Below are positions 3,235 through 21,461 of a DNA stretch of 64,000 nt, piece after piece. The number at the start of each line of letters is the position of its first letter. The first letter of the stretch is position 1. Below the pieces are notes generated by a model. It was not told the DNA's origin. It saw nothing but the letters and a program-made list of their open reading frames with translations, and searched no databases. Location: IMG/VR virus record IMGVR_UViG_3300032307_000622, positions 32,001-96,000 of that record. The stretch is one strand, 5' to 3'. The position numbers and the translations under genes were made by a program. Origin of the DNA: a virus.

Positions 3235-3400
3235 CCTCCTCTAGCTCCTCAACATCAATGTCATAGACACCATCATAGGTAATGTCGTTGTCCATAGAAT
3301 CTCCCCAACTAGTCCAAGCTAGCTGTTCGGCTGCCTCTGCTGATTCTGCTTCTAGCTCACCAGCAAAGTCAATACGCATCTTCACATAGTATTTGGGCAT
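3209..3400 (-). CDS. Small acidic protein
   Basis: ORF track; AGAAAGTAG RBS. Confidence 0.7.
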   Translation of the reverse strand: MPKYYVKMRIDFAGELEAESAEAAEQLAWTSWGDSMDNDITYDGVYDIDVEELEEDEDDDDND

Positions 3401-3426
3401 TTATCTACTTTCTTTAGGGTAGGTCT

Positions 3427-3449
3427 ATTATGACATGACCCTCAGACAT
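3427..3449 (-). promoter_or_regulatory. Early promoter ATGTC-N12-CATAAT
   Basis: Motif copy. Confidence 0.7.
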
Positions 3450-3553
3450 TTTGTAGTTTCTGGGAAAAAAGTTATGCGGTCGTAATTATTTTTTTATCTT
3501 AATCTATATGATTATTGAAAACCTGGGCGGCTCAATTTCGATCCATGAATGGA

Positions 3554-3580
3554 GGGCAGTTTATACTCATGCCCAGGAGT
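3554..3580 (-). ncRNA. Compact H-type pseudoknot, copy 1 (ACUC CU GGGCA U GAGU AUAAAC UGCCC)
   Basis: Covarying stems across 4 copies. Confidence 0.65.
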
Positions 3581-3585
3581 GTTGC

Positions 3586-4590
3586 TTAGTTAGCTAAAAC
3601 CAACTGAAGCAGTCTGTTCTTTTCAGCAGTTGTCACTGGGTCAAAACCAGAAGCAGCTGCTAGGATAGATTCGTTAGAACCACCACGAGCAGAGCGGTAC
3701 CAGTCTAGTCTTTCAGTTAGAGCGTTGAAAGCTCCCCACTTAGTTCCAGCGATTGTGTTGTTATACTCACCAACATAGATTGCGTTGATTAGGTCAATCT
3801 TATCGTTGTGCTTTTTGAATGAGCCCTTAGAGTCTTTTTCTGGGGCAGGGTAAGCGAGTTCAACAATCTTGTCAAACTGTGCCTTGGTGATTTCAGTTTC
3901 AATCATAGCCTTAGCCATCTCATCAAACTTATCCATGTAAGCGTTAGCCAAACCAAGAGCCTCTCTAGCTTGCTGAACTTTGCCAGAAGCTGTTGCGGTG
4001 TGTCTAATCTTGAATGACTGCTTGACACTTCCACCTCTGCCACGATTACCAAGAGCAAGGTTTAGAGTGTTAGCACATACAACACGAACTGGTGTGATAC
4101 TAGCTTGAATGGCAACAGAACCATCATGGCTAGTGTTGATTAGAAGATAAGTGTTTACCTTATCAGACACGCCGTTAGGGTCTAGGATAGTCTCACGCTC
4201 AAGAGCAAGAGAACCAAAAACCTGTCTGCCACCCTTGATAGAGCCAGCAGTCTCCCAACGACCTCCGCCATCTAGCATCAGGTCTCCGAAATCAAACAAG
4301 TCTTCATTCTGAAGCGGAACATAACGCTCACCAACTACGCCAAGAACATCATTTTGTTCTGAGTTGAATGGGTTAGTTCTAGTTACGAATGAGTAACCCT
4401 TGTCTGAAGCAAAACCATCAGGAATTGCTACATCTTCCAAGCGAACATTCCAGTTAGACAAGTGTGCCAAGTCTAGCATCTCTGCTGTGGTTACTTCCTT
4501 GTCAAAGACTGTGCCTAGCCCATGCCAAGCTGGCTGGCGAAGGGAAGCAAAAGCGGTCTGTCCGTTTACGGTCTCTAGCTCATGTGCCAT
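3586..4590 (-). CDS. DUF932/DUF945 family phage/plasmid protein
   Basis: MAHELE...AWHGLG N-terminus, Y..LQNE, WETAGS..GG, SHDGS, TPVRVVCANTL motifs. Confidence 0.9.
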   Translation of the reverse strand: MAHELETVNGQTAFASLRQPAWHGLGTVFDKEVTTAEMLDLAHLSNWNVRLEDVAIPDGFASDKGYSFVTRTNPFNSEQNDVLGVVGERYVPLQNEDLFDFGDLMLDGGGRWETAGSIKGGRQVFGSLALERETILDPNGVSDKVNTYLLINTSHDGSVAIQASITPVRVVCANTLNLALGNRGRGGSVKQSFKIRHTATASGKVQQAREALGLANAYMDKFDEMAKAMIETEITKAQFDKIVELAYPAPEKDSKGSFKKHNDKIDLINAIYVGEYNNTIAGTKWGAFNALTERLDWYRSARGGSNESILAAASGFDPVTTAEKNRLLQLVLAN

Positions 4591-4628
4591 GTTTTTCTAC
4601 TTTCTGTTAGGGGATTTCTAATAATCTA

Positions 4629-4657
4629 ATTATAGGGTTACCCTCCGACATTGTCAA
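4629..4657 (-). promoter_or_regulatory. Perfect TTGACA-N17-TATAAT promoter containing the ATGTC box
   Basis: Read directly from sequence. Confidence 0.9.
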
Positions 4658-4781
4658 GGATTCAGGGCAAAATAATTAATCTTCGTAAATAACAGTTTGG
4701 TAACAAAATGGGGGCCGCCCAAATCCACCCACTCAGTATTTGTGATCACGAGATCTTCAGCTTTTGTGTGGGTGGCTGGGT

Positions 4782-4808
4782 GAGCAGTTTAGCGACATAC
4801 TCAGGTCG
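4782..4808 (-). ncRNA. Compact H-type pseudoknot, copy 2
   Basis: CGAC CU GAGUA U GUCG CUAAAC UGCUC; U-G wobble fixes the strand. Confidence 0.65.
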
Positions 4809-4817
4809 TTTGTCTGT

Positions 4818-5264
4818 TTAGATAAGTTCCATTACAGACGAGTAAGATGAAGCAGAAACTTCCTCTTGCGTAGTCATACGAAGCACCTTGAGATTACGCT
4901 CTAGGATTTCCTTACGAGTTGAGTGTTCCCTACCAAACCACTCACGCTGGTTAGGCTTGCTTGGCTCAGTTGGCTTCTCTCCCAACCCAATTAGTTCTGG
5001 GTCTAGGACAAGTTCCAGCCTACCATTGTAGTTGGTTGAGATACGAATAACGCTATCGTAGTCATAACCAATCTTGGCAGAGTTGTTCTTGAGATACTCA
5101 GAAACAGCACTAGCAACCTTCTTCTTGTATTCCTCAGTTGCCAACTCATACTGCTTACGCTCATCTGCGTAGTTTGCTACTGCCTCGTCAATCTTCGCAA
5201 TAGACTTCTCAATGTCTGCGATTAGAACGGATACAGGGATTTTTACGGACATAGTTCTAGCCAT
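4818..5264 (-). CDS. Hypothetical coiled-coil protein
   Basis: ORF track; AGAAAGTAG RBS; own promoter. Confidence 0.8.
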   Translation of the reverse strand: MARTMSVKIPVSVLIADIEKSIAKIDEAVANYADERKQYELATEEYKKKVASAVSEYLKNNSAKIGYDYDSVIRISTNYNGRLELVLDPELIGLGEKPTEPSKPNQREWFGREHSTRKEILERNLKVLRMTTQEEVSASSYSSVMELI

Positions 5265-5296
5265 AATTTATTTCTACTTTCTTTCAGGGTAATTAC

Positions 5297-5319
5297 ATTA
5301 TACATAGGGGGTAGGACAT
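5297..5319 (-). promoter_or_regulatory. Early promoter ATGTC-N12-TATAAT
   Basis: Motif copy. Confidence 0.8.
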
Positions 5320-5334
5320 TTATTTAGTTGTGGT

Positions 5335-5363
5335 GAGCAGTTTATCTTGACTTGCTCAGGTCA
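5335..5363 (-). ncRNA. Compact H-type pseudoknot, copy 3
   Basis: UGAC CU GAGCA A GUCA AGAUAAAC UGCUC. Confidence 0.65.
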
Positions 5364-5373
5364 GAGGAGGTGA

Positions 5374-5520
5374 TTACTTTACAGTAGTCCAGCGAGGCTG
5401 TCCGTTTACATCAAGGCGAACACGAGCAGAGCCACTAGGGTTCTTTACGATTTCCTTGATAGTTCCAACGACACCAGACTTAGCGGTGGTGAACTGTGAG
5501 CCAACAGTTAGATTTACCAT
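5374..5520 (-). CDS. Small basic beta-rich protein (MVNLTVGSQFTTAKSGVVG..., 48 aa)
   Basis: Manual translation; AAGGAAG RBS; own promoter. Confidence 0.75.
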   Translation of the reverse strand: MVNLTVGSQFTTAKSGVVGTIKEIVKNPSGSARVRLDVNGQPRWTTVK

Positions 5521-5584
5521 TTTGCTTCCTTTTCCGCCCCAGAGGGACTGTTTTGATTTATTACCAACCTTTGTTGATAGGTCT

Positions 5585-5613
5585 ATTGTAGCCTAACCCT
5601 CCGACATTATCAA
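5585..5613 (-). promoter_or_regulatory. Early promoter TTGATA-ATGTC-N12-TACAAT
   Basis: Motif copy. Confidence 0.8.
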
Positions 5614-5688
5614 GCATTGTTTTATAACATTTCTGGGGAAAATTGTTATACTTCGTAACTTGACAAAATGTTGATCTTGGGGCGACAC

Positions 5689-5718
5689 AAAACCCCCAGG
5701 ATGTCAAGTCCCAGGGGT
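5689..5718 (-). terminator. Intrinsic terminator after the 5726 gene
   Basis: CCCCUGGGA/UCCUGGGGG stem followed by UUUU. Confidence 0.6.
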
Positions 5719-5725
5719 AGTGTGT

Positions 5726-6274
5726 TTAGACTGCTTGTTCTTCTTTGAGGTACGAGTATACTCCGCACTTTGCTCTCTCACAATAGTCCTCATTAGTTAT
5801 CTCACGGACCTCTTGGAAAGTCAGAGTCAAAGTATTGTCTCCGTAGGTTGTAGCAAAGGTTTGGTTATCAAGATTTATGATGTAGATACCCTCACAGAAT
5901 AAATCATCATTCTTGAACTCTGGGTCTAGCACTAGCGGCACAGGGTCAGTAGCGTTGACAATTACCTCAAGAATACCAGCACCAGTATCTCTAGTTAGGC
6001 TAGGATAGTCCTTACTAAACCTCTCGCCATCTTCCAGACTTCCCATACCATCTTCTCTAAAGTAGTTGGCATAGATTTTCTTTAGCTCCTCATCACTTGC
6101 CTGATAGGTCAGGTGTAGGTCAAAGTTTTTCTCTAGCTTTTCGATGTTCGTTGGCTTAGACAAAAAGTTTACAATAGTGATACCCTGCCCACTTGGATAG
6201 TGGTCCCATTGACCATACTGGGCTACTACTGTCTTTCCGTTGTAAATTACCTCTGTAATTCCTCTAGTTCCCAT
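5726..6274 (-). CDS. Conserved phage hypothetical protein (MGTRG...QYGQWDHYPSGQG)
   Basis: ORF track; ATG at 6274 after GAAAGTAGG RBS. Confidence 0.8.
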   Translation of the reverse strand: MGTRGITEVIYNGKTVVAQYGQWDHYPSGQGITIVNFLSKPTNIEKLEKNFDLHLTYQASDEELKKIYANYFREDGMGSLEDGERFSKDYPSLTRDTGAGILEVIVNATDPVPLVLDPEFKNDDLFCEGIYIINLDNQTFATTYGDNTLTLTFQEVREITNEDYCERAKCGVYSYLKEEQAV

Positions 6275-6302
6275 TTTCCTACTTTCTTTTGTTGGTGAGA
6301 TT

Positions 6303-6325
6303 ATTATACATTGGGGGTCAGACAT
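6303..6325 (-). promoter_or_regulatory. Early promoter ATGTC-N12-TATAAT
   Basis: Motif copy. Confidence 0.8.
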
Positions 6326-6380
6326 TTAGGTTCTTAATTCGTAACTGTTATAAAGCTGTGATCTGGGCCGCCCTAAAGGT

Positions 6381-6463
6381 GGCCAGTTTTTCGTCATGGC
6401 CAGGACGTGGTCCACATGTTAGAAAGGATAAGAAGTGTGGACCATCTTGCCCCTATGCAAGAT
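6381..6463 (-). ncRNA. Candidate sRNA: short hairpin, anti-RBS hairpin (loop CUUCUUAUCCUUUCUAACA) and pseudoknot copy 4 (6381-6407)
   Basis: Perfect 7-bp and 9-bp stems abutting CGUC CU GGCCA U GACG AAAAAC UGGCC. Confidence 0.6.
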
Positions 6464-6535
6464 CTATTTTCTGGAATATACAAATATGAGACATGCTATT
6501 CCTAGGAAGTACAGAGCCCAGTGATACAGCTCCAT
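6464..6535 (-). CDS. 23-aa single-TM peptide MELYHWALYFLGIACLIFVYSRK
   Basis: TAATG coupling to the upstream gene; hydrophobic. Confidence 0.5.
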   Translation of the reverse strand: MELYHWALYFLGIACLIFVYSRK

Positions 6536-7254
6536 TACTTTTTACTCGCACTAAACAATATGTCATTGCGAGCAAATACGCATTGTCCGCAGGTAACGCA
6601 GGCGGAACCCTTGTCGCTAATTAGCGGAAGTTTCTTAGCATTCTCAGGGCACGGTATTGCAGACTTGACGGTGATAGACAACATCCGCTCTTTACCGCTA
6701 GCAAAATTGTTAGCAAGATATGCAAGCTTTACGCCACTATCTTTCTTTAGCTTTTCTGCCAGCTGCCAGTTGTCATCATCAGTTGAGAAGTATAGTGCAA
6801 GGTTGTCAACATCGCTAAGAATTGGAACAGCAAAATCTGACCTCGTGTATACCCAGAATTGAATTTGGGGGAATGCCTTGATTACATTCTTCCAGGCCTT
6901 AGTATAGTCTTCACTAAAGAAGTCACCATCCCAGTGAATTCGAAACAGCTTTTCTGCATTACGCTTGTCACAATCTTTCTCAAACTCTTGAATCATTTGA
7001 TAAATTAGAATTTCCATTTCCAATTCATCTGCATTACGTAGCAGGTCCCAATTGTTTATGAGAACAGCTTTTACGCCCTTGTAGACTTTTTCGAGCTTGC
7101 CTGCATAACAGACTTTCTCGCATACACTTGTTGCTCCAGGGCAGGAATAAGCTTTCCCTGAAGGAAGGCCAAAAGTGTTCGCAATAGTTGGCGTTTTACC
7201 ATTTGGAGAGACTGCATTAGTTACCTTTCGGTCTTTAGAACGGATTAGGGGCAT
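6535..7254 (-). CDS. Gp88-family protein (radical-SAM-like Cys motif)
   Basis: CPGATSVCEKVCYA, FRIHWDGDFF, WVYTRS, CP...CVTCGQC; start 7254 after GAAAGGA. Confidence 0.8.
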   Translation of the reverse strand: MPLIRSKDRKVTNAVSPNGKTPTIANTFGLPSGKAYSCPGATSVCEKVCYAGKLEKVYKGVKAVLINNWDLLRNADELEMEILIYQMIQEFEKDCDKRNAEKLFRIHWDGDFFSEDYTKAWKNVIKAFPQIQFWVYTRSDFAVPILSDVDNLALYFSTDDDNWQLAEKLKKDSGVKLAYLANNFASGKERMLSITVKSAIPCPENAKKLPLISDKGSACVTCGQCVFARNDILFSASKK

Positions 7255-7745: not shown

Positions 7746-7783
7746 TACTTTACCTTTCTTGTTGAGGGGTGTTGAACTCTAAT

Positions 7784-7812
7784 AGCATAGCACCTACCAC
7801 AGACATTGTCAA
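7784..7812 (-). promoter_or_regulatory. Early promoter TTGACA-ATGTC-N12-TATGCT
   Basis: Motif copy. Confidence 0.8.
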
Positions 7813-7865
7813 GCAGGTGGCCGTACAAGTTTTCTGGTCTAATTAGTCTTTGGCAGTCTGTACAG

Positions 7866-8018
7866 TTATAGGTTTTCTTTGATAGCATTTCGTCTATTTT
7901 CACTTCTTGTGCCTTTCTTTGGCTTAGGGGTTATTACAGTGTGCTTAGACTTTAGCATAGAGTGAAACAACGCTTGACTCTCAGCCTTGCGTCTTGCTTC
8001 ATTTCTTTTTCCTAACAT
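7866..8018 (-). CDS. Small basic leaderless protein (50 aa)
   Basis: Manual translation; ATG 6 nt after the -10. Confidence 0.65.
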   Translation of the reverse strand: MLGKRNEARRKAESQALFHSMLKSKHTVITPKPKKGTRSENRRNAIKENL

Positions 8019-8024
8019 ACTAAA

Positions 8025-8047
8025 ATCTTAGCATAACCCTCTGACAT
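8025..8047 (-). promoter_or_regulatory. Early promoter ATGTC-N12-TAAGAT
   Basis: Motif copy. Confidence 0.75.
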
Positions 8048-8164
8048 TTTGGGAAAATTCCTGGGGCATTTTTAATAGACTACGTAAAGTTATTTCTAGA
8101 TCAGAATTGGGGCGGCACAACCAACGGACATTGTCAAGTGCGACACGCCGTAGTTGTGAAAGTT

Positions 8165-8272
8165 TTAGAACGGTGGTTGGTTTTTGCGGTATCCAATTCC
8201 GTGAGCAATCACATACACAACCGCAATTAGAATTAGGTCAATCATTAGGTTGAATCCGTTGTAAAAAATCAT
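8165..8272 (-). CDS. Small single-TM protein (35 aa)
   Basis: Manual translation; GAGG RBS. Confidence 0.6.
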   Translation of the reverse strand: MIFYNGFNLMIDLILIAVVYVIAHGIGYRKNQPPF

Positions 8273-8389
8273 TTAGTTTTCCTCTCTTGTTGTGAATAGG
8301 CTACCAACACCCTCAGACATTTTATCTTCTGAGAGCATTAGGTCAATTTGGAAAATTAGGGTTTCTAGTTCTTCTACTGATAGGCTCAC
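8273..8389 (-). CDS. Small hypothetical protein (38 aa)
   Basis: GTGA overlap; GAGGGG RBS. Confidence 0.45.
   Translation of the reverse strand: MSLSVEELETLIFQIDLMLSEDKMSEGVGSLFTTREEN
8298..8320 (-). promoter_or_regulatory. Early promoter ATGTC-N12-TAGCCT
   Basis: Motif copy. Confidence 0.65.
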
Positions 8390-8556
8390 TTGTCCCCCTC
8401 CCACTCTAGGATTAGTTCTGCGATACGCTTGGCATCTTCTAGTGGCACATTAGGCATTAGGTATCCAACCATTCTCGCATAAGGGTATTGAGCCTTAGTC
8501 TTTAGAACTGCTAGGGCTGAGTCTAGTAGTTCGTGTGATTCTCTGTTGTAAGCCAT
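8386..8556 (-). CDS. Hypothetical protein (MAYNRESHELL..., 56 aa)
   Basis: Manual translation; AGAAAGGA RBS. Confidence 0.7.
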   Translation of the reverse strand: MAYNRESHELLDSALAVLKTKAQYPYARMVGYLMPNVPLEDAKRIAELILEWEGDK

Positions 8557-8582
8557 TTATTTTCCTTTCTTCTGATACTTAG

Positions 8583-8605
8583 AATCTAGCATAGGGGTAT
8601 GACAT
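8583..8605 (-). promoter_or_regulatory. Early promoter ATGTC-N12-TAGATT
   Basis: Motif copy. Confidence 0.7.
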
Positions 8606-8606
8606 T

Positions 8607-8756
8607 TTAGACTAGTTCCAGATACTCTTCTGGAAAATCTTCGCCAAGATAACTCCTGGCATCATCTAGGGGCATTAGTCCCTTGTAGTCATTACACTCG
8701 TGGCAAACATAGTCATTGACTAGGTTCATACAAAACACACAAATTGTTTCAGTCAT
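8607..8756 (-). CDS. Small zinc-finger-like protein (CVFC...CHEC, 49 aa)
   Basis: Manual translation; GAAAGGA RBS. Confidence 0.7.
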   Translation of the reverse strand: MTETICVFCMNLVNDYVCHECNDYKGLMPLDDARSYLGEDFPEEYLELV

Positions 8757-8760
8757 TTAT

Positions 8761-8946
8761 TTAGTTTCCTTTCGTTGATAGTTCTAACTTAGCATAACCC
8801 TCAGACATTTTCTTGGGCAACACGCTGTAGTGATAGGGCAGGTGGTTTGCGTCCCACTGCTTGCGGTCTAGGTAGTAGCTAGTGCTTGTTTCTTGGACAT
8901 AGCCACAGCCTTTACATTCAGTTTTACGCCACATTCTTCTACTCAT
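8761..8946 (-). CDS. Small CxxC protein
   Basis: ORF track; AAGGA RBS. Confidence 0.6.
   Translation of the reverse strand: MSRRMWRKTECKGCGYVQETSTSYYLDRKQWDANHLPYHYSVLPKKMSEGYAKLELSTKGN
8786..8808 (-). promoter_or_regulatory. Early promoter ATGTC-N12-TAAGTT
   Basis: Motif copy. Confidence 0.7.
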
Positions 8947-8971
8947 TTATTCCTTCTTTCTAACTACTAAA

Positions 8972-8994
8972 AACCTATCACGACCCTACGACAT
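8972..8994 (-). promoter_or_regulatory. Early promoter ATGTC-N12-TAGGTT
   Basis: Motif copy. Confidence 0.7.
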
Positions 8995-9150
8995 TTTGGG
9001 GACATTTAGGGGTGTGTCGTGATACTTGTTATCATTTTGTTATAATTCTGGGGGGTCTAGATCTAGTGTCTTAAATTGATCTGGGTACTAAATGTGGGCG
9101 GCACACAAAAGCGGATCTGTCAAGCAGACACGCCGTAGATTTAGAATTTT

Positions 9151-9261
9151 CTAGTGAATCTCACCATACTCATTCCAGCATGACTCACAGCCATACTCAT
9201 CTTCTTCTACTACGAAGACTTTCTCTACTACTACATCGCATAATTCACAAACTGAAAACAT
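9151..9261 (-). CDS. Small zinc-finger-like protein (CELC...CESC, 36 aa)
   Basis: Manual translation; AGAAAGGATAA RBS. Confidence 0.7.
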   Translation of the reverse strand: MFSVCELCDVVVEKVFVVEEDEYGCESCWNEYGEIH

Positions 9262-13838: not shown

Positions 13839-16800
13839 TGGCTAGATTTTCTCAGAATTCATCCAGTAATGATGCATCAGCACTAAACTACGTACAGGTA
13901 GTTGGAACGCAGCAGGTAATCTCATCTGCCCCAAACTCAATTATTGACCTAAACATTACAACTACTGGTAAGCCAGTTCAAATCTCTATAACTGGTGAGG
14001 GTGCAAATGCAAATGCTGGATCTTGGCTAAGACTCAACCTATTCCGTGACAACGTAGAAATCGGAAACGCAATTCAGCTTGAGTCCTCTGCAGCTTCTGA
14101 GAACGTACCATTCGCAATTAACTTTATTGATGCAGTAGAAGCAGGTACATATAACTATTCTGCTCGTGTTACATCTATTACTGGTGGTAACTGGACATTT
14201 GGTGAGGCTGCTGGTCCTGTTATGAATGCCGTTGAGCTTACTGGTTTTGAGGGTGATCGTGGTCCTAGGGGATTTACTGGAGCTGACGCTCTATGGAACT
14301 TTACTGGTGCCTATGACCTTGGTGCATCTTACGCTATCGGAGATGTTGCAACTTATGAAGGACAAACCTGGTACAGACTAGATGCTAACGGCGGTAACAC
14401 TGGAGATACCCCAGTAGAGGGAGACTTCTGGACTCTAATTGCACGTAAGGGTGACACTGGAGATACCGCAAATATTGCTGACTTTGTGTTTGAAGTTGAT
14501 CCTGATAACCTCAGCACGATGACTGTGGCTAATCACGACATGGCAATTCGCACTACTCGTGATGATAACCAAGATGCAGACATAAGTATTGAATCTGCAG
14601 ATGACGTTTGGGTTTACGCAAATGGAGATGACATTCATCTTTATGCAGCAGACGACGTAGAAATTACTACTAACAATAACGGTGACACGTCCTACAACTG
14701 GGAGTTTAGAAATACTGGTGGACTAAAGTTCCCAGATGGCACTGTTCAGAATACCGCCTATACTGGTGGCTCAGGTGGCGGTGGCAACACAGCTGACTTT
14801 GTATTTGCTCTTCATGAGGACGGCGAGGACACTGAAAGCAGAATGACGATCCACAACCACGACATGCGTATTGAAACGACTCGTGATGGTGAAGAAGATG
14901 CAGACATTGAGATTAACTCAGCAGATGATGTTTGGATTACAGGATACGACGAAGTTGAAATTCGTTCAACTACCGATGAAGTAAGAATTATTACAAATAA
15001 TTTCCAAACTCAATGGCACTTTAGACCTGATGGTGGCATTCTCTTCCCAGACAATACCGTCCAGACAACTGCCTATACAGGTAATGACGCAGGTCTTCCA
15101 CAAGACTTGGGAACTTCAGATAGCCCAACATTTAACAAGATTATTCTTACAAGCAATAACGGAGAAGCAGACAACATTGCAATTGGTGATGACGCATTTG
15201 TTGGCGATGCCAATGTTGCAAACCACGTAGCAATTTTTGGTAACCAAGATTCAACTAATGGCGGTATTATTCTAGGTGACGGACTTACAGAGACACTATC
15301 TTCTGATGGCTCAAACCTTTTTGTAACTGCAGACAACGACATTGTTCTTAACCCTGGAAGTACATATGCTTACATTGGTACCCCAGAACTAGACGGAAGC
15401 AATAGAATTGCCAAGATGTCTGACATCCAAGGTGGCGGACCAGACAGCCACGGTAACTTTGAGTTCAATAACAGCGAAATGTTTACCGAAGGCTCAATGG
15501 ATATTAATGCTAAGCGTGAGGATTCAGCATTAGGTGCTGCTATTGAGCTAGACCCAAATGATGGCTATATTGCTCTTTTTGCATACTCAAGCCCTAGAAC
15601 TAATTCTTTCTCACCAGACGACTGGTCAGATGCAATGTGGTTAACATGGGGAGAAGGTGGAAGCCAAGTAGTTCTAAGTGGTGCCAGCTCAATAACCACA
15701 TACATGGGTGAAGAATTTAACTCAGCACCTTTCCAGTCTATAAGCGTAAACGGTTCAGATTTTTACTCCTATCAGGGGGGATCAAGTGGAGACGGTCAAA
15801 CAACCATCTATCTATCAGGTGGTTCTCCAGACTTCCCTACCACTGTAACTTCACTTGAGTTTAAGCATCAGACCGAATCACGCATTGAAATTGATGATGA
15901 CGATGAGGAAATCTTGATCCAGGGTATAGGTTTAGATGTAAACCTTGAGTCAACAGAGGGCATTACGTTTAGGTCTAATCTAAATAGCAATACAGAATAT
16001 ACCTGGGCAATGGGATCAAATGGCGAATTTAGACTTCCTGGTGACGGATACATTCAGAACGTTGCCAATGGTTCTGGTGACGGCAGTGGGAACGACACAA
16101 TCAAAATTGTTCCAGACTCAAGCCTTGACAATGACCAATACATAATCATTGATCCAACCTTTGGTTCTCCAAACCACATTCACATTCGTGCAGGTGGTGA
16201 GCAGGATAACTCAAGTGCAGACTTGATTCTCGGTGGTGAAAGAACTCACGTCAGGCTATCTGACACCGATGGGGCAGTCTACGTTTCTTCGAAGCGAGAA
16301 GACACAACCACCGCTTATGTAAACGGCGGTGGCTTTGAGGCTAATGTTCTAGCCATCGTTGGAGATCTATCGCACATCCAGCCATATGCAAACTTCAGTG
16401 TTGAGGTGGGCGGAGATCTCTATCAGATCGACTATGTAAGCTACAACTCTGGCACAAACGTAACTCAAATTACCGCAACCCCAGCAACGTTTGAAATGAA
16501 CGGTGTCTACGTAATCCACCAATCAAACGGTGAAAACTACTGGGCATTTAACGAAAACGGATATCTAATGGGTCCTGCAATGGGTAGCCTAGGTGTTACA
16601 GGTATTATAAATGCTGATGGTGACCTATACGTTCAGTCCTCCAATGACAATGTATCTGTTAGCAGTGGTGCAAGCATAAACCTAAATGCTAACAATGCTG
16701 TTAGAGTAACTACAGATGGTGGGGATTCGGCTTGGGACTTTGGTGCTGACGGAAAGCTGTACGGTCCAGGAGAAGAGGGTACTCTAATACTTGGTGGAGA

Positions 16801-17398
16801 GCTTTTGACTACAGATAGGAACATGTCAATCAGGTCTACCCAGCAGTCAGTAGTTCTAAGTGGACAGCTTGGAGAATTCCTGGGAAGTTCAGATGATGCA
16901 AGCAGCCAGATTGCAACTATTGGAGATGTAAACGCAGCTAGATTTGGTGCCTCAGCATCATTCTTTAGCACGGTAGACCAGGGTCCATCTGCTGCAAACA
17001 CAATCCAGGCATTTACCTTTAACAATACTGATTGGGCAACTGGAGTTACACTTGGTAGCACAACTCAGATAACGATGGCAAATGCTGGAAAGTATAATAT
17101 TGCGTTCTCAGCTCAAATGCACCAAACCAATAGCTCTGGCCTTATCAACATCTGGCTAAACAAGAACGGTACTCCGCTAGCAAACTCAAACACAAAGTTT
17201 GCAATTACTTCTAATAATCCATACTCTGTTGCAGCACTAAACCTGTTTGTAGATGCTGCTGCTGGTGATTACTACGAACTTATGTGGTCTTCTGACAGCC
17301 AACACACGGTAATGGAATATGAGGCAGCAACTGGTTCTGGAGCAACACTCCACCCAGCAGTACCATCAGTTATTTTGACGGTAAATCAAGTTGGATAG
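13838..17398 (+). CDS. Large tail fibre/receptor-binding protein with internal repeats
   Basis: 1186 aa; short GXY stretch, carbohydrate-binding-like Y.IGDV.TYEG..W motif, FPD.TVQ.TAYTG repeats. Confidence 0.75.
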   Translation: MARFSQNSSSNDASALNYVQVVGTQQVISSAPNSIIDLNITTTGKPVQISITGEGANANAGSWLRLNLFRDNVEIGNAIQLESSAASENVPFAINFIDAVEAGTYNYSARVTSITGGNWTFGEAAGPVMNAVELTGFEGDRGPRGFTGADALWNFTGAYDLGASYAIGDVATYEGQTWYRLDANGGNTGDTPVEGDFWTLIARKGDTGDTANIADFVFEVDPDNLSTMTVANHDMAIRTTRDDNQDADISIESADDVWVYANGDDIHLYAADDVEITTNNNGDTSYNWEFRNTGGLKFPDGTVQNTAYTGGSGGGGNTADFVFALHEDGEDTESRMTIHNHDMRIETTRDGEEDADIEINSADDVWITGYDEVEIRSTTDEVRIITNNFQTQWHFRPDGGILFPDNTVQTTAYTGNDAGLPQDLGTSDSPTFNKIILTSNNGEADNIAIGDDAFVGDANVANHVAIFGNQDSTNGGIILGDGLTETLSSDGSNLFVTADNDIVLNPGSTYAYIGTPELDGSNRIAKMSDIQGGGPDSHGNFEFNNSEMFTEGSMDINAKREDSALGAAIELDPNDGYIALFAYSSPRTNSFSPDDWSDAMWLTWGEGGSQVVLSGASSITTYMGEEFNSAPFQSISVNGSDFYSYQGGSSGDGQTTIYLSGGSPDFPTTVTSLEFKHQTESRIEIDDDDEEILIQGIGLDVNLESTEGITFRSNLNSNTEYTWAMGSNGEFRLPGDGYIQNVANGSGDGSGNDTIKIVPDSSLDNDQYIIIDPTFGSPNHIHIRAGGEQDNSSADLILGGERTHVRLSDTDGAVYVSSKREDTTTAYVNGGGFEANVLAIVGDLSHIQPYANFSVEVGGDLYQIDYVSYNSGTNVTQITATPATFEMNGVYVIHQSNGENYWAFNENGYLMGPAMGSLGVTGIINADGDLYVQSSNDNVSVSSGASINLNANNAVRVTTDGGDSAWDFGADGKLYGPGEEGTLILGGELLTTDRNMSIRSTQQSVVLSGQLGEFLGSSDDASSQIATIGDVNAARFGASASFFSTVDQGPSAANTIQAFTFNNTDWATGVTLGSTTQITMANAGKYNIAFSAQMHQTNSSGLINIWLNKNGTPLANSNTKFAITSNNPYSVAALNLFVDAAAGDYYELMWSSDSQHTVMEYEAATGSGATLHPAVPSVILTVNQVG

Positions 17399-19819: not shown

Positions 19820-20451
19820 TGTCTACTATTTCTTCTACCCCTAAAGTTGCCTACATCTATGACTCTCAAACAGATACATGGCACCCAACTGCTGGAGCAG
19901 CAAACACCTCAGAAAACTATTCGTGGTCTGGCGAACACACCTTCAACGATTCTGTAACCCTGAACGATGTAGTTGTTGCAAAAGCTGGCATTAATAATTT
20001 TCAAAATCCTACAGCGAGAGATGCAGCAATTCCAAGTCCAGCTAACGGAACAGTTTGTTTTGTTAGACAAGACAATTCTGGAAATTCAATTAGGCAAATT
20101 CAATATTATTCTTCAACCAGTTCACGATGGGTAAACTACTATGACGCTCAGCTTGAAAATAAAACTGCCAACTATGTTATTACTCTAAGCGATAGTGCTA
20201 AGGCAATTACAATGGACTCATCTTCCGCAAACACTGTCACTGTTCCAGCAAATTCTACAACAGCAATTCCTGTAGGAACTATCGTAACAGTTATTCAGAC
20301 TGGAACTGGTGCAACATCTTTTGTAGAGGCATCAGGAGTAACAATAAGAAGCAAAAACTCCCACAAAACTTTAAATACCCAGTATTCAGCTGCACAATTA
20401 GTAAAAACTGATACCGATATTTGGATACTATTAGGCGATCTTAAGGCATAG
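19819..20451 (+). CDS. Tail-fibre protein with C-terminal domain shared with 29396 (...W.L.GDL.A)
   Basis: Visible paralogy of the last ~95 aa. Confidence 0.7.
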   Translation: MSTISSTPKVAYIYDSQTDTWHPTAGAANTSENYSWSGEHTFNDSVTLNDVVVAKAGINNFQNPTARDAAIPSPANGTVCFVRQDNSGNSIRQIQYYSSTSSRWVNYYDAQLENKTANYVITLSDSAKAITMDSSSANTVTVPANSTTAIPVGTIVTVIQTGTGATSFVEASGVTIRSKNSHKTLNTQYSAAQLVKTDTDIWILLGDLKA

Positions 20452-20459
20452 GAGGTCCA

Positions 20460-21461
20460 ATGTTAAATGCTGGAATCCTTGCATCTTCGTCTTCCCTAGT
20501 TTTAGTGCCAGATCTATCAAACTTTAATCTTGCCCAGGTTAACTCAGCATTGCAGACAGCTGGGCTTGTTGTTGGCACTGTTACGACTACAGGAACAAAC
20601 GCTACACCATCAAATAGTGGACTAGTTTCCTCACAATCGCCAACTGCTGGAACGCTTGTTGAAAGATTTAGTCAGGTAAATTATGTAACCTACTCATATA
20701 CAGCACCAAGTCCAACACCAACACCAATTACGCCAACACCAGTTACACCAACCCCAGCAAACTGGTATGCAGCTGGGTGTTGTAACGGTTCTCCAATATA
20801 TGATTCAGATAATGACTATAATACTCTTAATCAAAGATTTACAGCATCATGTGCTGGTGGAACGCTAACAAATACATCTATTGGTACTACATCTTTTATG
20901 TCTGTGACCTGTACTCCAGCTCCAGTTCCAGCTCCATCACAAGATATTCCAGTTTGGTATGGTGCTGCCTGTTGTGGAGGAACTGCAATAACATCTTCAA
21001 GTGCCGCTAGCTCGTCAAACGTTTATGACAATCTTGATGCAAACTGTATTGGCGGAACAATTTATAACGCAACAGTTATTTTGGGAACTTTTGGAAATCC
21101 AAGTTATCCATCTATTAGCTGTACCTCAACACCTACACCAAGTACGCCAACACCAGGTGGAACAGTCTGGTATTGTAGCTATAGCGGAACTGATGGATCT
21201 GCTAGAACAACCCAGACATCAGATTTAACACAAACAGGAGACTGTGACTATGCTGTTGTGTGTAGCACTTCTGGATATCCAGCCTACCCAAGCTATACCC
21301 CATGTGGTGGCTCTACACCTACACCAACACCTACACCAACACCTACACCTACACCAACTCCATCTGGCGGAGGAACTTGTGGTTCTGCTTGTGGAAACTG
21401 TCTAGACTATGGATGTACATGGTATTACAGTGGACCATTTGGCCCATACTGCCAATGCTAA
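20460..21461 (+). CDS. PASTA-domain protein with Cys-rich modules and Pro-Thr linkers
   Basis: VPDL...AL..AGL...G.VSSQSP.AG; WYxxxCC modules; (TP)n. Confidence 0.75.
   Translation: MLNAGILASSSSLVLVPDLSNFNLAQVNSALQTAGLVVGTVTTTGTNATPSNSGLVSSQSPTAGTLVERFSQVNYVTYSYTAPSPTPTPITPTPVTPTPANWYAAGCCNGSPIYDSDNDYNTLNQRFTASCAGGTLTNTSIGTTSFMSVTCTPAPVPAPSQDIPVWYGAACCGGTAITSSSAASSSNVYDNLDANCIGGTIYNATVILGTFGNPSYPSISCTSTPTPSTPTPGGTVWYCSYSGTDGSARTTQTSDLTQTGDCDYAVVCSTSGYPAYPSYTPCGGSTPTPTPTPTPTPTPTPSGGGTCGSACGNCLDYGCTWYYSGPFGPYCQC
21313..21363 (+). repeat. 6-nt ACACCW tandem repeat encoding (TP)n
   Basis: Read directly from sequence. Confidence 0.8.

What the first reader, a model, noticed from the sequence alone, without database searches (positions are those of the whole stretch)
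3554..6407. Four copies of a ~27-nt H-type pseudoknot with compensatory covariation in early 3' UTRs
Seen at 3554-3580, 4782-4808, 5335-5363 and 6381-6407 (minus): P1-CU-P2-W-P1'-(N)WAAAC-P2'. P1 is ACUC/GAGU, CGAC/GUCG, UGAC/GUCA or CGUC/GACG. P2 is GGGCA/UGCCC, GAGUA/UGCUC, GAGCA/UGCUC or GGCCA/UGGCC. Stems change while pairing and the CU and AAAC loops persist. Three copies begin 5-10 nt after a stop codon and the fourth caps the anti-RBS hairpin. The topology resembles compact luteoviral frameshift pseudoknots but these are non-coding. Inferred options: exonuclease roadblock, processing or antitermination signal, or a mimic of type III TA pseudoknot antitoxins.
Basis: partly seen in the sequence, partly recalled or inferred. 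Interest (0 to 1): 0.82.

Follow-up and report, generated by a model that had tools for sequence, protein, structure and literature searches.

The report
Coremin-like pseudoknot behind phage genes
The four repeats are genuine copies of a tiny knotted RNA fold that many unrelated phages place a few bases after a gene's stop codon or next to tRNA genes; it closely resembles a plant-virus RNA knot that stops RNA-degrading enzymes, but its job in phages has never been tested.

Summary
Observation confirmed. The four 27-29 nt minus-strand sites fit one H-type pseudoknot, NNNC-CU-GRNYA-W-GNNN-NN(N0-2)-AAAC-UGNYC. A loose pattern finds 4 in the window against 0.00 in shuffles. The 116-kb phage genome holds exactly six.

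It is a large family. In a pattern-only sample of 128 sequences, 95.3% of pair cells are paired against 25-41% in slid controls, and both stems covary. CU and AAAC are almost invariant. No Rfam 15 family matches.

Position is regular. The commonest start is exactly 5 nt after the upstream stop codon (17 of 75 independent gene clusters). Other copies sit 0-13 nt before tRNAs or between tRNAs. Cultured phages of Mycobacterium, Arthrobacter, Staphylococcus, Synechococcus, Nostoc and Paracoccus carry it.

The closest known element is the coremin motif (xrRNA-C/WCC) of plant RNA viruses, which shares the closing C-G pair, the first loop C, the loop end and the NNAAACU spacer.

My best reading (about 0.45) is a compact roadblock at cistron boundaries against processive RNases. 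Function is untested.

This scan reported the same motif at least eight times in other genomes.

The parts
3554..3580 (-). Pseudoknot copy 1 (ACUC/GAGU, GGGCA/UGCCC), 5 nt after the TAA of the DUF932-like gene
   Evidence: (41.9 bits)
4782..4808 (-). Pseudoknot copy 2 (CGAC/GUCG, GAGUA/UGCUC with a U-G pair), 9 nt after the stop of the 148-aa ORF
   Evidence: (42.2 bits)
5335..5363 (-). Pseudoknot copy 3 (UGAC/GUCA, GAGCA/UGCUC, with a 2-nt longer L3), 10 nt after the stop of the 48-aa ORF; the next promoter-like -10 box follows within about 40 nt
   Evidence: (28.7 bits)
6381..6407 (-). Pseudoknot copy 4 (CGUC/GACG, GGCCA/UGGCC); no ORF upstream, 1 nt after a hairpin with a CU-rich loop
   Evidence: (33.8 bits)
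3586..4590 (-). Upstream gene of copy 1: 334-aa protein, phrog_1221 (E 7e-100). Homologues in 15 other loci are also followed by the pseudoknot, with different stems
4818..5264 (-). Upstream gene of copy 2: 148-aa protein of unknown family. Homologues in 11 other loci are followed by the pseudoknot
5374..5520 (-). Upstream gene of copy 3: 48-aa ORF. Homologues in 8 other loci are followed by the pseudoknot
6409..6443 (-). Hairpin (8 bp, 19-nt CU-rich loop) abutting copy 4. A similar CU-rich stretch followed by the pseudoknot occurs in L013, L102, L109 and L063. It may be the body of a small RNA that ends in the pseudoknot
6366..6384 (+). Terminator-like hairpin plus U-run on the opposite strand; its 3' arm and U-run overlap P2' and the A-run of copy 4
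5692..5718 (-). Ordinary intrinsic-terminator-like hairpin (10 bp, then a U-run) behind ORF 5726-6325. It shows that this phage also uses standard terminators

Best explanation
The element is an RNA, read on the sense strand of the genes. It folds into a compact H-type pseudoknot: P1 of 3-4 bp closed by C-G, L1 = CU, P2 of 5 bp (6 when U6 pairs with the A that follows), a one-base junction, and L3 = NN-AAAC. It is a phage version of the coremin-type knot (xrRNA-C / xrRNA-WCC). I propose that it works without a dedicated protein, as a small directional roadblock at the boundary between two RNA units (cistron/cistron, cistron/tRNA, tRNA/tRNA, small RNA/cistron). A processive enzyme that degrades the RNA stops at the knot. 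By analogy with coremin this is a 5'-to-3' exonuclease, which would be RNase J in most of the hosts seen; 3'-to-5' enzymes may be stopped as well. The neighbouring unit then survives and gets a defined end. The knot begins 5 nt or more behind the stop codon, so a terminating ribosome never has to unwind it. Shown here: the fold-compatible covariation, the invariant loops, the position rules, the breadth of the family, and the sequence and architecture match to coremin. Inferred: that it blocks any nuclease, which nuclease, and which side it protects.
For: 1. Structure. In 128 sequences chosen by a pattern that does not ask for pairing, P1 pairs 2 and 3 are paired in 127/128 and 128/128 with four Watson-Crick types. 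The two free P2 pairs are paired in 128/128 and 127/128. No shuffle of 500 reaches the observed value, and slid controls give 25-41% paired. Of 146 viral pattern matches, 111 pair perfectly, against 13 of 119 in bacterial genome contigs.
2. Loops. With L3 left free, 111 of 143 matches end in AAAC, and the other 32 show random-like P1 pairing. With the 5' part left free, 141 of 149 are preceded by CCU.
3. Position. The motif starts 5 nt after the stop in 17 of 75 independent upstream-protein clusters, 5-9 nt after it in 36, and closer than 5 nt in only 5. The distance to the next start codon is broad, with a median of 73 nt. Thirteen of 145 copies have a tRNA starting 0-13 nt downstream. Copies also lie between tRNAs.
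4. Orthologous sites keep the knot with different stems: 16, 12 and 9 loci behind three protein families.
5. Match to coremin, from passages read. Coremin has hp1 of 3-4 bp with a pyrimidine-purine closing pair and a U-A second pair. Its first loop base is C (only U is tolerated) and acts as L1. Its loop ends in A-D, loops of 6-8 nt work, and the spacer UUAAACU.. follows. The loop pairs with the spacer. Xrn1 stops 1 nt before hp1. Scanning ribosomes are blocked, and frameshifting was stimulated in a screen run in E. coli. The phage motif has the C-G closing pair, an A-U/U-A second pair in 115/128, first loop base C, loop end A-W, and NN-AAAC-U after P1'.
6. Hosts of cultured carriers are Actinobacteria, Cyanobacteria, Firmicutes, an alphaproteobacterium and crAss-like phages. 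By my recollection most of these groups have RNase J. One weak plasmid hit was found in 5,426 complete E. coli genomes.
Against: No experiment or RNA-end data exist for any phage copy.

Nearest-neighbour stability is low: mean -1.8 kcal/mol for P1 alone and -3.4 for P2 alone. Any resistance must therefore come from tertiary contacts that I cannot compute.

Coremin needs a second hairpin (hp2) for Xrn1 resistance. Only 24% of phage copies have a hairpin starting 0-3 nt downstream, against 14-17% in controls.

The coremin loop rule (G as second loop base) is not met; here the loop begins C-U-G.

If the knot protects what lies 3' of it, the 15 copies at convergent gene ends have nothing to protect. 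This includes the genome's own copy at 16190, which lies 6 nt from the stop of a convergent gene. If it protects what lies 5' of it, copies inside tRNA arrays are hard to explain.

One Vibrio phage cluster carries a variant, and Vibrio lacks RNase J by my recollection.

The host tally rests on BLAST with two 39-nt queries. That finds only copies with similar P1, and I have no denominators.
Confidence: 0.45

Rival explanations
1. A mimic of the tRNA acceptor arm that serves as a processing ('punctuation') signal. The stacked P2 and P1 helices, with U6 as position -1, G7-C27 as the 1-72 pair and the following A(CC) as discriminator plus CCA, would be recognised by RNase P (cutting in L1), and perhaps by RNase Z or the CCA-adding enzyme. 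That would cut polycistronic RNA at gene ends and inside tRNA arrays.
For: U6 and G7-C27 are nearly invariant. The base after the motif is A in 69% of copies. ACC follows 25 of 145 copies, and ACCA is the commonest following 4-mer at 14 of 145. Copies sit like tRNA-sized units flush between tRNAs in L072 and 2-10 nt behind tRNAs in other contigs. Thirteen of 145 lie 0-13 nt before a tRNA. Published work (abstract and passages read, PMC12710915) shows that a small H-type pseudoknot is cut by bacterial RNase P RNA in loop 1 when a 3' RCCA is present, and that TYMV tRNA-like structures are RNase P substrates. A universal enzyme would explain the very wide host range.
Against: Eighty-three percent of copies lack ACC, and in the cited work cleavage depended on the RCC motif. 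The ACC flank does not follow whether the phage's own tRNA genes encode CCA: 2 of 17 copies in CCA-encoding loci against 9 of 34 in CCA-less loci. This genome's six tRNA genes encode no CCA. The helix stack is 9-10 bp, not 12, and has no T-loop mimic. Cutting in L1 would leave the upstream mRNA with an unstructured tail. The strong conservation of AAAC and of C5 is not explained by RNase P recognition.
Confidence: 0.15
2. A transcription terminator, attenuator or pause element in which the pseudoknot replaces the usual hairpin.
For: The first nine bases after the motif are G-poor and A/U-rich. Twenty-eight of 145 copies are followed by a T-run. These include the genome's own copy at 16190 (A then seven U), at a 47-nt convergent junction with no other structure, and the S. 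aureus phage copy. The position right behind stop codons is where terminators lie.
Against: Most copies (117 of 145) have no T-run. About a third of co-directional cases have the next start codon within 19-37 nt, and 13 have a tRNA within 0-13 nt. That leaves no room for a new promoter. Three copies lie inside one tRNA array. The window also has ordinary terminators. Conserved loops are not a feature of terminators.
Confidence: 0.1
3. A binding site or decoy for a conserved host factor or small ligand. It would act in cis, or as a small RNA released by RNase P and RNase Z from tRNA arrays and 3' UTRs.
For: About 13 of 27 positions are invariant, including single-stranded ones, across phages of many phyla. 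P1 shows a position-specific preference: pair 3 is A-U/U-A in 115 of 128. Secondary-structure stability is low. There are 1-6 copies per genome. The flush tRNA|knot|tRNA layout would release a 27-nt RNA.
Against: Carriers include T7-like, T4-like and siphovirus genomes. A shared phage-encoded partner is therefore unlikely, though I did not test this by gene content. No riboswitch family matches. The junction base L2 is not conserved (T 77, A 49, C 18, G 1), unlike the ligand-pairing C of preQ1-I as I recall it. The position behind genes rather than in 5' leaders is atypical for riboswitches.
Confidence: 0.1
4. A very small self-cleaving ribozyme that punctuates phage transcripts, as hammerhead and theta (minimal HDV-like) ribozymes are thought to do.
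For: The pattern is the one seen in small ribozymes: invariant core bases, freely covarying stems, no conserved flanks, sense orientation, intergenic position, and adjacency to phage tRNAs. The strand order P1-P2-(optional hairpin)-P1'-J-P2' matches HDV-like ribozymes; two copies carry a hairpin inserted at L2. Theta ribozymes lie next to phage tRNAs (abstract and passages read).
Against: At 27 nt it would be far smaller than any known natural self-cleaving class, as far as I recall. It lacks P3/L3/P1.1 of HDV-like ribozymes. No ribozyme family matches in Rfam. The coremin relatives are reported as stable roadblocks, not as cleaving RNAs.
Confidence: 0.05

Closest known systems
Coremin motif (xrRNA-C) and its Watson-Crick variant xrRNA-WCC of beny-, cucumo- and other RNA viruses (Dilweg et al.: PMC6546385, PMC10520033, PMC10321173; passages read)
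   Same: A short first hairpin of 3-4 bp whose sequence is free but whose closing pair is pyrimidine-purine (C-G) and whose second pair is U-A. The first loop base is C and acts as L1. The loop ends in A-D. The stretch after the hairpin is UUAAACU in coremin (GUCCGAAGACGUUAAACUAC as printed) and NN-AAAC-U here. The loop pairs with the stretch after AAAC. Loops of 6-8 nt are functional. The element is non-coding, often repeated, and lies in 3' UTRs or intergenic regions.
   Different: The loop here is 8 nt, C-U-G-R-N-Y-A-W, not YGAD or YGNNAD: G is third, not second. It makes a 5-bp Watson-Crick P2 instead of 2-3 mostly non-canonical pairs. The downstream hairpin hp2, which coremin needs for Xrn1 resistance, is not conserved here (24% against 14-17% in controls). 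The carriers are DNA phages of bacteria, and Xrn1 is absent from bacteria. No resistance assay has been done on a phage copy.
Luteovirid -1 frameshift pseudoknots (BWYV, PLRV, PEMV-1, ScYLV)
   Same: Compact H-type topology with a 2-nt L1 starting with C, a one-base junction and an A-rich L3. This rests on my recollection and on the comparison drawn by the coremin authors.
   Different: There is no slippery heptamer: 8 of 145 copies have one 4-10 nt upstream, against 2 of 145 in a shifted control, and those are A/T runs around stop codons. The element lies behind stop codons or between tRNAs, not inside an ORF. According, a BWYV pseudoknot with an added hp2 does not stall Xrn1.
Pseudoknotted acceptor arm of plant-virus tRNA-like structures (TYMV) and small pseudoknot substrates of RNase P (PMC12710915)
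   Same: An H-type pseudoknot followed by A-C-C(-A) in a minority of copies, adjacency to and interleaving with tRNA genes, and U before and G-C at the helix end that carries the 3' overhang.
   Different: There is no anticodon or T-arm domain. ACC is present in only 25 of 145 copies. The element is internal to transcripts rather than at a genome 3' end.
Intercistronic stabiliser structures in bacteria and phages (T4 UUCG hairpins, REP elements, 3' 'retroregulator' hairpins); recalled, not read here
   Same: Placement just behind stop codons inside operons and at operon ends, and the proposed role of defining stable RNA segments.
   Different: Those are plain, thermodynamically strong hairpins without conserved loops. 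This is a weak-looking pseudoknot with invariant loop bases shared across phyla.
   Same: A small pseudoknotted RNA in phage intergenic regions, in sense orientation and associated with tRNAs, with the same 5'-to-3' order of helix strands.
   Different: It lacks P3/L3/P1.1 and the catalytic J4/2 arrangement. It lies mostly 5' of tRNAs, whereas theta ribozymes lie 3' of them. No cleavage is known.
preQ1-I riboswitch aptamer (Rfam RF00522)
   Same: Size, H-type fold and an A-rich L3 (recalled).
   Different: No covariance-model hit even on a 51-nt slice at E up to 10. The junction base is not conserved. It lies behind genes, not in 5' leaders overlapping a ribosome-binding site.

Membership tests
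Coremin motif (xrRNA-C / xrRNA-WCC) | hp1 of 3-5 bp with free stem sequence and a pyrimidine-purine (C-G) loop-closing pair | tested here: met
   P1 pairs covary freely. C4 is kept in 141 of 149 copies when the 5' part is left free. The closing pair is C-G in nearly all copies, with 3 G-C flips among 140. The second pair is A-U/U-A in 115 of 128.
Coremin motif (xrRNA-C / xrRNA-WCC) | Loop consensus YGAD / YGNNAD, with G as second loop base and A-D at the end | tested here: inconclusive
   The loop here is C-U-G-R-N-Y-A-W. The first base C and the final A-W fit. G is third, not second, and C occurs at the last position in 18 of 145 copies. The papers report that 7- and 8-nt loops can work but give no rule for them.
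Coremin motif (xrRNA-C / xrRNA-WCC) | Conserved spacer (UUAAACUAC) after hp1, whose 3' part pairs with the loop | tested here: met
   NN-AAAC-U follows P1' in 111 of 143 matches when L3 is left free, and the remainder look like chance matches. UU is the second commonest NN (26 of 145). Pairing of the loop with the bases after AAAC covaries.
Coremin motif (xrRNA-C / xrRNA-WCC) | Second hairpin (hp2) directly downstream, required for Xrn1 resistance | tested here: not met
   A hairpin of at least 4 bp starting 0-3 nt after the motif is present in 24% of 142 copies, against 14% 25 nt further on and 17% (sd 3%) in shuffles.
Coremin motif (xrRNA-C / xrRNA-WCC) | Resistance to a 5'-3' exoribonuclease, with the stop 1 nt before hp1 | not testable with these tools
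Luteovirid -1 frameshift pseudoknot | Slippery heptamer X XXY YYZ 5-9 nt upstream, inside an ORF with an open -1 frame | tested here: not met
   Eight of 145 copies have such a heptamer 4-10 nt upstream (control 2 of 145), all A/T runs beside stop codons. The motif lies behind stop codons (TAA 84, TAG 22, TGA 13) or between tRNAs.
Any Rfam 15 family (including preQ1-I/II/III, SAM-II/V, guanidine-III, pistol, HDV-like, hammerhead) | Covariance-model match | tested here: not met
   There were 0 hits at gathering score in the 64-kb window. Only chance-level hits at E up to 10 appeared in 3300-6700 and in 4770-4820.
Type III toxin-antitoxin antitoxin RNA (ToxI-like) | Tandem array of identical repeats next to a ToxN/AbiQ-type endoribonuclease gene | tested here: not met
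   The copies are 527-1202 nt apart, separated by genes, and have different stems. The flanking ORFs match phrog_1221, GP88, Hsp20, Cpn10 or nothing. I did not scan the whole genome for ToxN.
tRNA-like structure / RNase P pseudoknot substrate | 3' RCCA after the helix end | tested here: inconclusive
   ACC follows 25 of 145 copies and ACCA 14 of 145; both are enriched but in the minority. There is no link to CCA-encoding tRNA genes.
Intrinsic (Rho-independent) terminator | Stable G+C-rich hairpin directly followed by a U-run | tested here: not met
   A T-run lies within 12 nt in 28 of 145 copies. P2 alone averages -3.4 kcal/mol. The tool's terminator scan calls none of the four window copies on the minus strand.

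The most novel reading that the evidence does not exclude
One small, protein-independent RNA 'stop sign' fold is shared by viruses of bacteria and of eukaryotes: DNA phages of at least five bacterial phyla, a contig labelled as a giant-virus MAG, and coremin-bearing plant and fungal RNA viruses. In phages it would be the first exoribonuclease-resistant RNA class of the prokaryotic world. It would halt RNase J (and possibly ribosomes or Xrn1) at cistron and tRNA boundaries and so shape which parts of a phage transcript survive.
Probability: 0.3. Interest if true: 0.9.

Novelty: new variant of a known kind. Interest (0 to 1): 0.78.

Why it matters
Exoribonuclease-resistant RNAs are so far known only from RNA viruses of eukaryotes. 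[quoted passage not shown] A 27-nt coremin-like knot recurs with full covariation in phages of Mycobacterium, Staphylococcus, cyanobacteria, gut Firmicutes and others. It would make that question directly testable in easy laboratory systems such as M. smegmatis with Labelle, or S. aureus phietaviruses. It would add a missing layer to phage gene expression, namely segmental RNA stability and tRNA-cluster processing. The extended Watson-Crick P2 also gives the coremin field a natural alignment that shows which loop and spacer bases pair. Finally, it could serve as a very small insulator part for synthetic operons. If instead it proves to be an RNase P signal or a ribozyme, it would be equally new.

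Tried and rejected
Rfam 15 gave no match for the whole window at gathering score or for two sub-regions at E up to 10. The hits were only chance-level (MicA, snoR113, mir-4654 and similar).

Megablast of 3300-6700 against the phage collection found no match. The nearest relatives by protein are Streptomyces BE-cluster phages, at about 48-55% identity. One of them, Jay2Jay, has no copy by a loose pattern.

Promoter reading rejected. The motif is tied to the upstream stop codon, not to the downstream start. It occurs at 15 convergent junctions. Its G-U pairs fit only the sense strand. The Pseudomonas T7-like phage BLAST hits are a phage-promoter look-alike of the 3' half only.

Recoding reading rejected. 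There are no slippery heptamers, stops are mostly TAA and often doubled, and no open frame continues behind the stop in the window copies (read).

Riboswitch reading set low. No family matches, and the junction base is variable.

A broad free-loop scan for variant loops returned mostly register shifts and opposite-strand echoes. I used it only to note that no abundant alternative loop class appeared.

The T-loop-then-motif scan returned 44 loci, all read. About eight hold a real or variant copy 2-10 nt behind a tRNA; the rest are unrelated.

Sequencing runs: no RNA holder was listed.

Literature. My searches found no paper describing this motif in phages. PMC11702639 concerns class 3 xrRNAs, not coremin.

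I did not test gene content for a shared phage partner protein. I did not run R-scape and did not model 3D structure.

The host tally and the statement that E. coli lacks the motif rest on BLAST with single 39-nt instances, which miss copies with other P1 words. The RNase J distribution, the ribosome helicase position, the sizes of known ribozymes and the luteoviral and preQ1 details are recalled, not taken from a call.

Full report
**What is in the window.** On the minus strand, four short sites share one layout: a 4-base word ending in C, then CU, a 5-base word G..(C/U)A, one base, the complement of the first word, 2-4 bases, AAAC, and the complement of the second word. They lie at 3580-3554, 4808-4782, 5363-5335 and 6407-6381.

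A strict script scan that allows G-U and no mismatch finds these four and nothing else in 64 kb on either strand. A looser tool pattern with no pairing demanded gives 4 matches against 0.00 expected in 100 shuffles. The window is bases 32001-96000 of a single 116,302-bp virus contig. The same scan finds two more copies on its plus strand, at 16190-16216 and 20423-20449. A covariance model built later separates six hits (28.7-46.3 bits) from noise (12.3 bits and below). All six copies have different P1 words, and five different P2 word pairs occur.

**It is a large family with real covariation.** Of 146 pattern matches in those loci, 111 pair perfectly and 30 have one P1 mismatch. The same pattern in bacterial genome contigs gave 13 perfect matches of 119, with a random-like spread of mismatches.

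I aligned 125 non-identical ungapped pattern matches and three window copies (copy 3 was left out because its L3 is longer). On this alignment:
- 95.3% of pair cells are standard pairs, against 77.7% in shuffles (0 of 500 shuffles reach the observed value) and 25-41% when the partner is slid by 1-3 columns.
- P1 pair 2 is paired in 127/128 with GC, AU, CG and UA all common.
- P1 pair 3 is paired in 128/128.
- The outermost P1 pair is paired in 103/128.
- The free P2 pairs are paired in 128/128 (AU 107, GC 19, GU 2) and 127/128.

The loops are not an artefact of my pattern. With L3 left free, 111 of 143 matches end in AAAC, and the other 32 have random-like P1 pairing; only two of them look like real variants. 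With everything 5' of P2 left free, 141 of 149 are preceded by CCU.

Variants seen:
- a co-change of AAAC-U to AAAA-G in at least six loci;
- a hairpin inserted at the junction base in two loci;
- a 2-nt junction or a 6-bp P2 in two loci.

G-U pairs occur only in the sense reading, and 107 of 145 copies have a same-strand ORF ending upstream. The fold is therefore an RNA fold of the sense transcript.

**Where it sits.** Upstream ORFs were taken as at least 40 codons ending within 60 nt, and copies were grouped by upstream-protein similarity into 75 clusters. The motif starts exactly 5 nt behind the stop in 17 clusters, 6 nt in 8, and 5-9 nt in 36. It starts closer than 5 nt in only 5, some of which are ambiguous. 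The distance to the next same-strand start codon is broad, with a median of 73 nt.

Fifteen copies lie at convergent junctions; about six have a divergent ORF upstream. The genome's own copy at 16190 ends a run of plus-strand ORFs from about 1.5 kb. It lies 6 nt from the stop of a convergent 2OG-Fe(II) oxygenase gene and is followed by A and seven U.

Orthologous sites keep the knot with different stems. There are 16 loci behind phrog_1221/DUF932-like genes (copy 1 here), 12 behind the 148-aa family (copy 2), 9 behind the 48-aa family (copy 3), and 4 behind the Hsp20 gene that precedes GroES in this genome.

Thirteen of 145 copies have a same-strand tRNA starting 0-13 nt downstream. In contig L072, three copies lie flush between tRNAs, two of which have inserts in the anticodon region. 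That contig is labelled as a giant-virus MAG and has RING-finger and collagen-repeat ORFs. A complete scan for a T-loop followed by the motif's 5' half found about eight further copies 2-10 nt behind a tRNA.

Copy 4 of the window has no ORF upstream. It abuts a hairpin with a 19-nt CU-rich loop. The same CU-rich stretch followed by the knot recurs in four related contigs, so it may close a small RNA.

**Carriers.** BLAST with two 39-nt instances against the cultured and annotated phage collection found the motif, usually in stretches with no annotated feature, in the following:
- Mycobacterium phage Labelle and Arthrobacter phage Molivia;
- Synechococcus phages S-EIVl, S-RIM4 and S-H35, Nostoc phage NMeng1 and Microcystis phage Mwe-JY13;
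- Paracoccus phages ParMal1 and ParKuw1;
- 85 Staphylococcus records;
- Streptococcus, Lactobacillus, Bacillus, Moorella and gut-Firmicutes phages, and phage D6E;
- crAss-like phages;
- one Vibrio cluster with CC instead of CU.

I read the sequences of eight of these. In Labelle the knot lies 6 nt behind the gp85 stop. In Molivia it lies 6 nt behind the SSB stop and 4 nt before tRNA-Gly. In S-RIM4 the distance from the stop is 6 nt, in S-EIVl 5 nt and in ParMal1 6 nt. In NMeng1 it lies about 5 nt before an annotated tRNA pseudogene. In StauST398-3 it lies 17 nt behind a stop, then a U-run, upstream of the scaffold-like and major head genes. S-EIVl has four clear copies and two weaker ones by the model. 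The same query found one weak plasmid hit in 5,426 complete E. coli genomes. These tallies miss copies with other P1 words.

**What it resembles.** No Rfam 15 family matches. Earlier notes of this scan report the same motif in at least eight other genomes and name the coremin motif as closest. I treated that as a lead and read passages of the three coremin papers. The papers state the following:
- Coremin (GUCCGAAGACGUUAAACUAC, as printed) has a 3-4-bp hairpin whose stem sequence is free.
- Its closing pair should be pyrimidine-purine and its second pair is U-A.
- Its loop follows YGAD or YGNNAD, and 7- and 8-nt loops can work.
- Its first loop base (C; only U tolerated) is modelled as L1.
- A conserved spacer follows, and the loop pairs with the 3' part of that spacer.
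- A second hairpin is needed for Xrn1 resistance, but not for frameshift stimulation in the Watson-Crick variant.
- Xrn1 stops one base before the first hairpin.
- The motif also blocks scanning ribosomes, and its variants were selected by frameshifting in E. coli.

The phage motif has the same C-G closing pair and an A-U/U-A second pair in 115/128. It has the same first loop base, the same A-(A/U) loop end, and the same NN-AAAC-U after the hairpin. It differs in three ways: an 8-nt loop that starts C-U-G, a 5-bp Watson-Crick P2, and no conserved second hairpin (24% against 14-17% in controls). I therefore file it as 'works like, and looks like, a variant of coremin', not as a proven member.

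**Mechanism I commit to (about 0.45).** It is a protein-independent roadblock at boundaries between RNA units that stops a processive RNase, so that the neighbouring unit keeps a defined, protected end.
- The 5-nt floor fits my recollection that the ribosome unwinds mRNA about 11 bases ahead of the P-site. A knot starting 5 nt after the stop would then stay folded while the ribosome terminates.
- By analogy with coremin, the enzyme would be a 5'-3' exonuclease. From memory, RNase J is present in Actinobacteria, Cyanobacteria, Firmicutes and many alphaproteobacteria, the main host groups seen, and absent from enterobacteria. The near absence from E. coli genomes fits this, but it is weak evidence.

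Against this reading:
- The computed stem energies are small (-1.8 and -3.4 kcal/mol on average).
- hp2 is missing.
- Copies at convergent ends have nothing downstream to protect.
- Copies inside tRNA arrays do not obviously need to protect what lies upstream.
- A Vibrio cluster carries a variant.

**Rivals.**
- A tRNA-acceptor mimic cut by RNase P or RNase Z (0.15). It is supported by U(-1), the G-C end pair, A (69%) and the enriched ACC(A) after the knot, by the tRNA contexts, and by published cleavage of a small pseudoknot in loop 1 when RCCA is present. It is weakened because 83% of copies lack ACC and the flank does not track CCA-encoding tRNA genes.
- A terminator or pause element (0.10). 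It fits the 28 of 145 copies with a T-run. It does not fit copies that lie 4-35 nt before tRNAs or start codons.
- A site or decoy for a host factor or ligand (0.10).
- A minute ribozyme (0.05).
- The remainder is left for something not considered.

**Novelty and value.** My six literature searches found no description of this motif in phages. It may be hidden in closed supplementary tables of PMC10690425. It is a new variant of a known kind: a coremin-like pseudoknot in DNA phages. It has a strict position rule, and cultured carriers make it testable at once.

Noticed in passing
window 6409-6480 (minus), with copy 4 at 6381-6407: A possible small non-coding RNA: two hairpins, the second with a 19-nt CU-rich loop partly complementary to the phage's purine-rich ribosome-binding stretch (AAAGAAAGUAGAAA-like), followed directly by the pseudoknot. 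An ATGTC box lies at 6494-6490, but the -10 box behind it is poor. A similar CU-rich stretch followed by the knot occurs in L013, L102, L109 and L063.
   Followed up: partly
window 4712-4720, 6365-6373, 3525-3533: A GC-rich box, GGGCGGCCC (9 matches with at most 1 mismatch in the window against 2.2 expected), lies 10-70 nt behind copies 1, 2 and 4 and ahead of the next promoter region. It may be part of hairpins or terminators, or a protein site.
   Followed up: partly
window 6366-6384 (+): A good terminator-like hairpin plus U-run on the opposite strand shares bases with P2' and the A-run of copy 4. It might stop antisense transcription into the early cluster.
   Followed up: no
I saw ATGTC plus a 12-nt spacer plus CATAAT/TATAAT ahead of several genes. 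Only one site (4657-4629) is a full TTGACA-17-TATAAT match.
   Followed up: partly
L072:7250-8050 (IMG/VR contig labelled GVMAG): A tRNA array with inserts in the anticodon region of at least two tRNAs, interleaved with three pseudoknot copies. The contig also encodes a RING-finger protein, a collagen-repeat protein and an N6 DNA methylase. It may be a virus of a eukaryote that carries the same knot.
   Followed up: partly
genome 20010-20801 (outside the window; L242:10-801) and 16223-16945, 7770-9188: The phage encodes Hsp20 and GroES (Cpn10) side by side, with a pseudoknot and a TTGACA-type promoter between them. It also encodes a 2OG-Fe(II) oxygenase and a carbamoyltransferase. These auxiliary genes are reminiscent of aquatic phages.
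   Followed up: no
window 29396-30967 (+) and 20460-21461 (+): A 523-aa protein with an N-terminal Mtd (major tropism determinant) domain and a 333-aa protein with a PASTA domain. The first hints at a diversity-generating retroelement target; I did not look for a reverse transcriptase.
   Followed up: no
L174 and L235 (MAG contigs, Aminicenantes and Eubacteriales): A small Cys-containing ORF (about 20 codons, similar in both contigs) ends on the UGA formed by U6-G7-A8 inside the pseudoknot. A ribosome must open P1 to terminate there, which is an exception to the 5-nt rule.
   Followed up: no
L324:690-730 (Pseudomonas phage PPPL-1): The 3' half of some copies (..UUUAAAAC.GCUCACUAUU) resembles the T7-like promoter between the scaffold and major head genes of Pseudomonas ghunaviruses. 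I take this as chance, but it produces false BLAST hits.
   Followed up: yes
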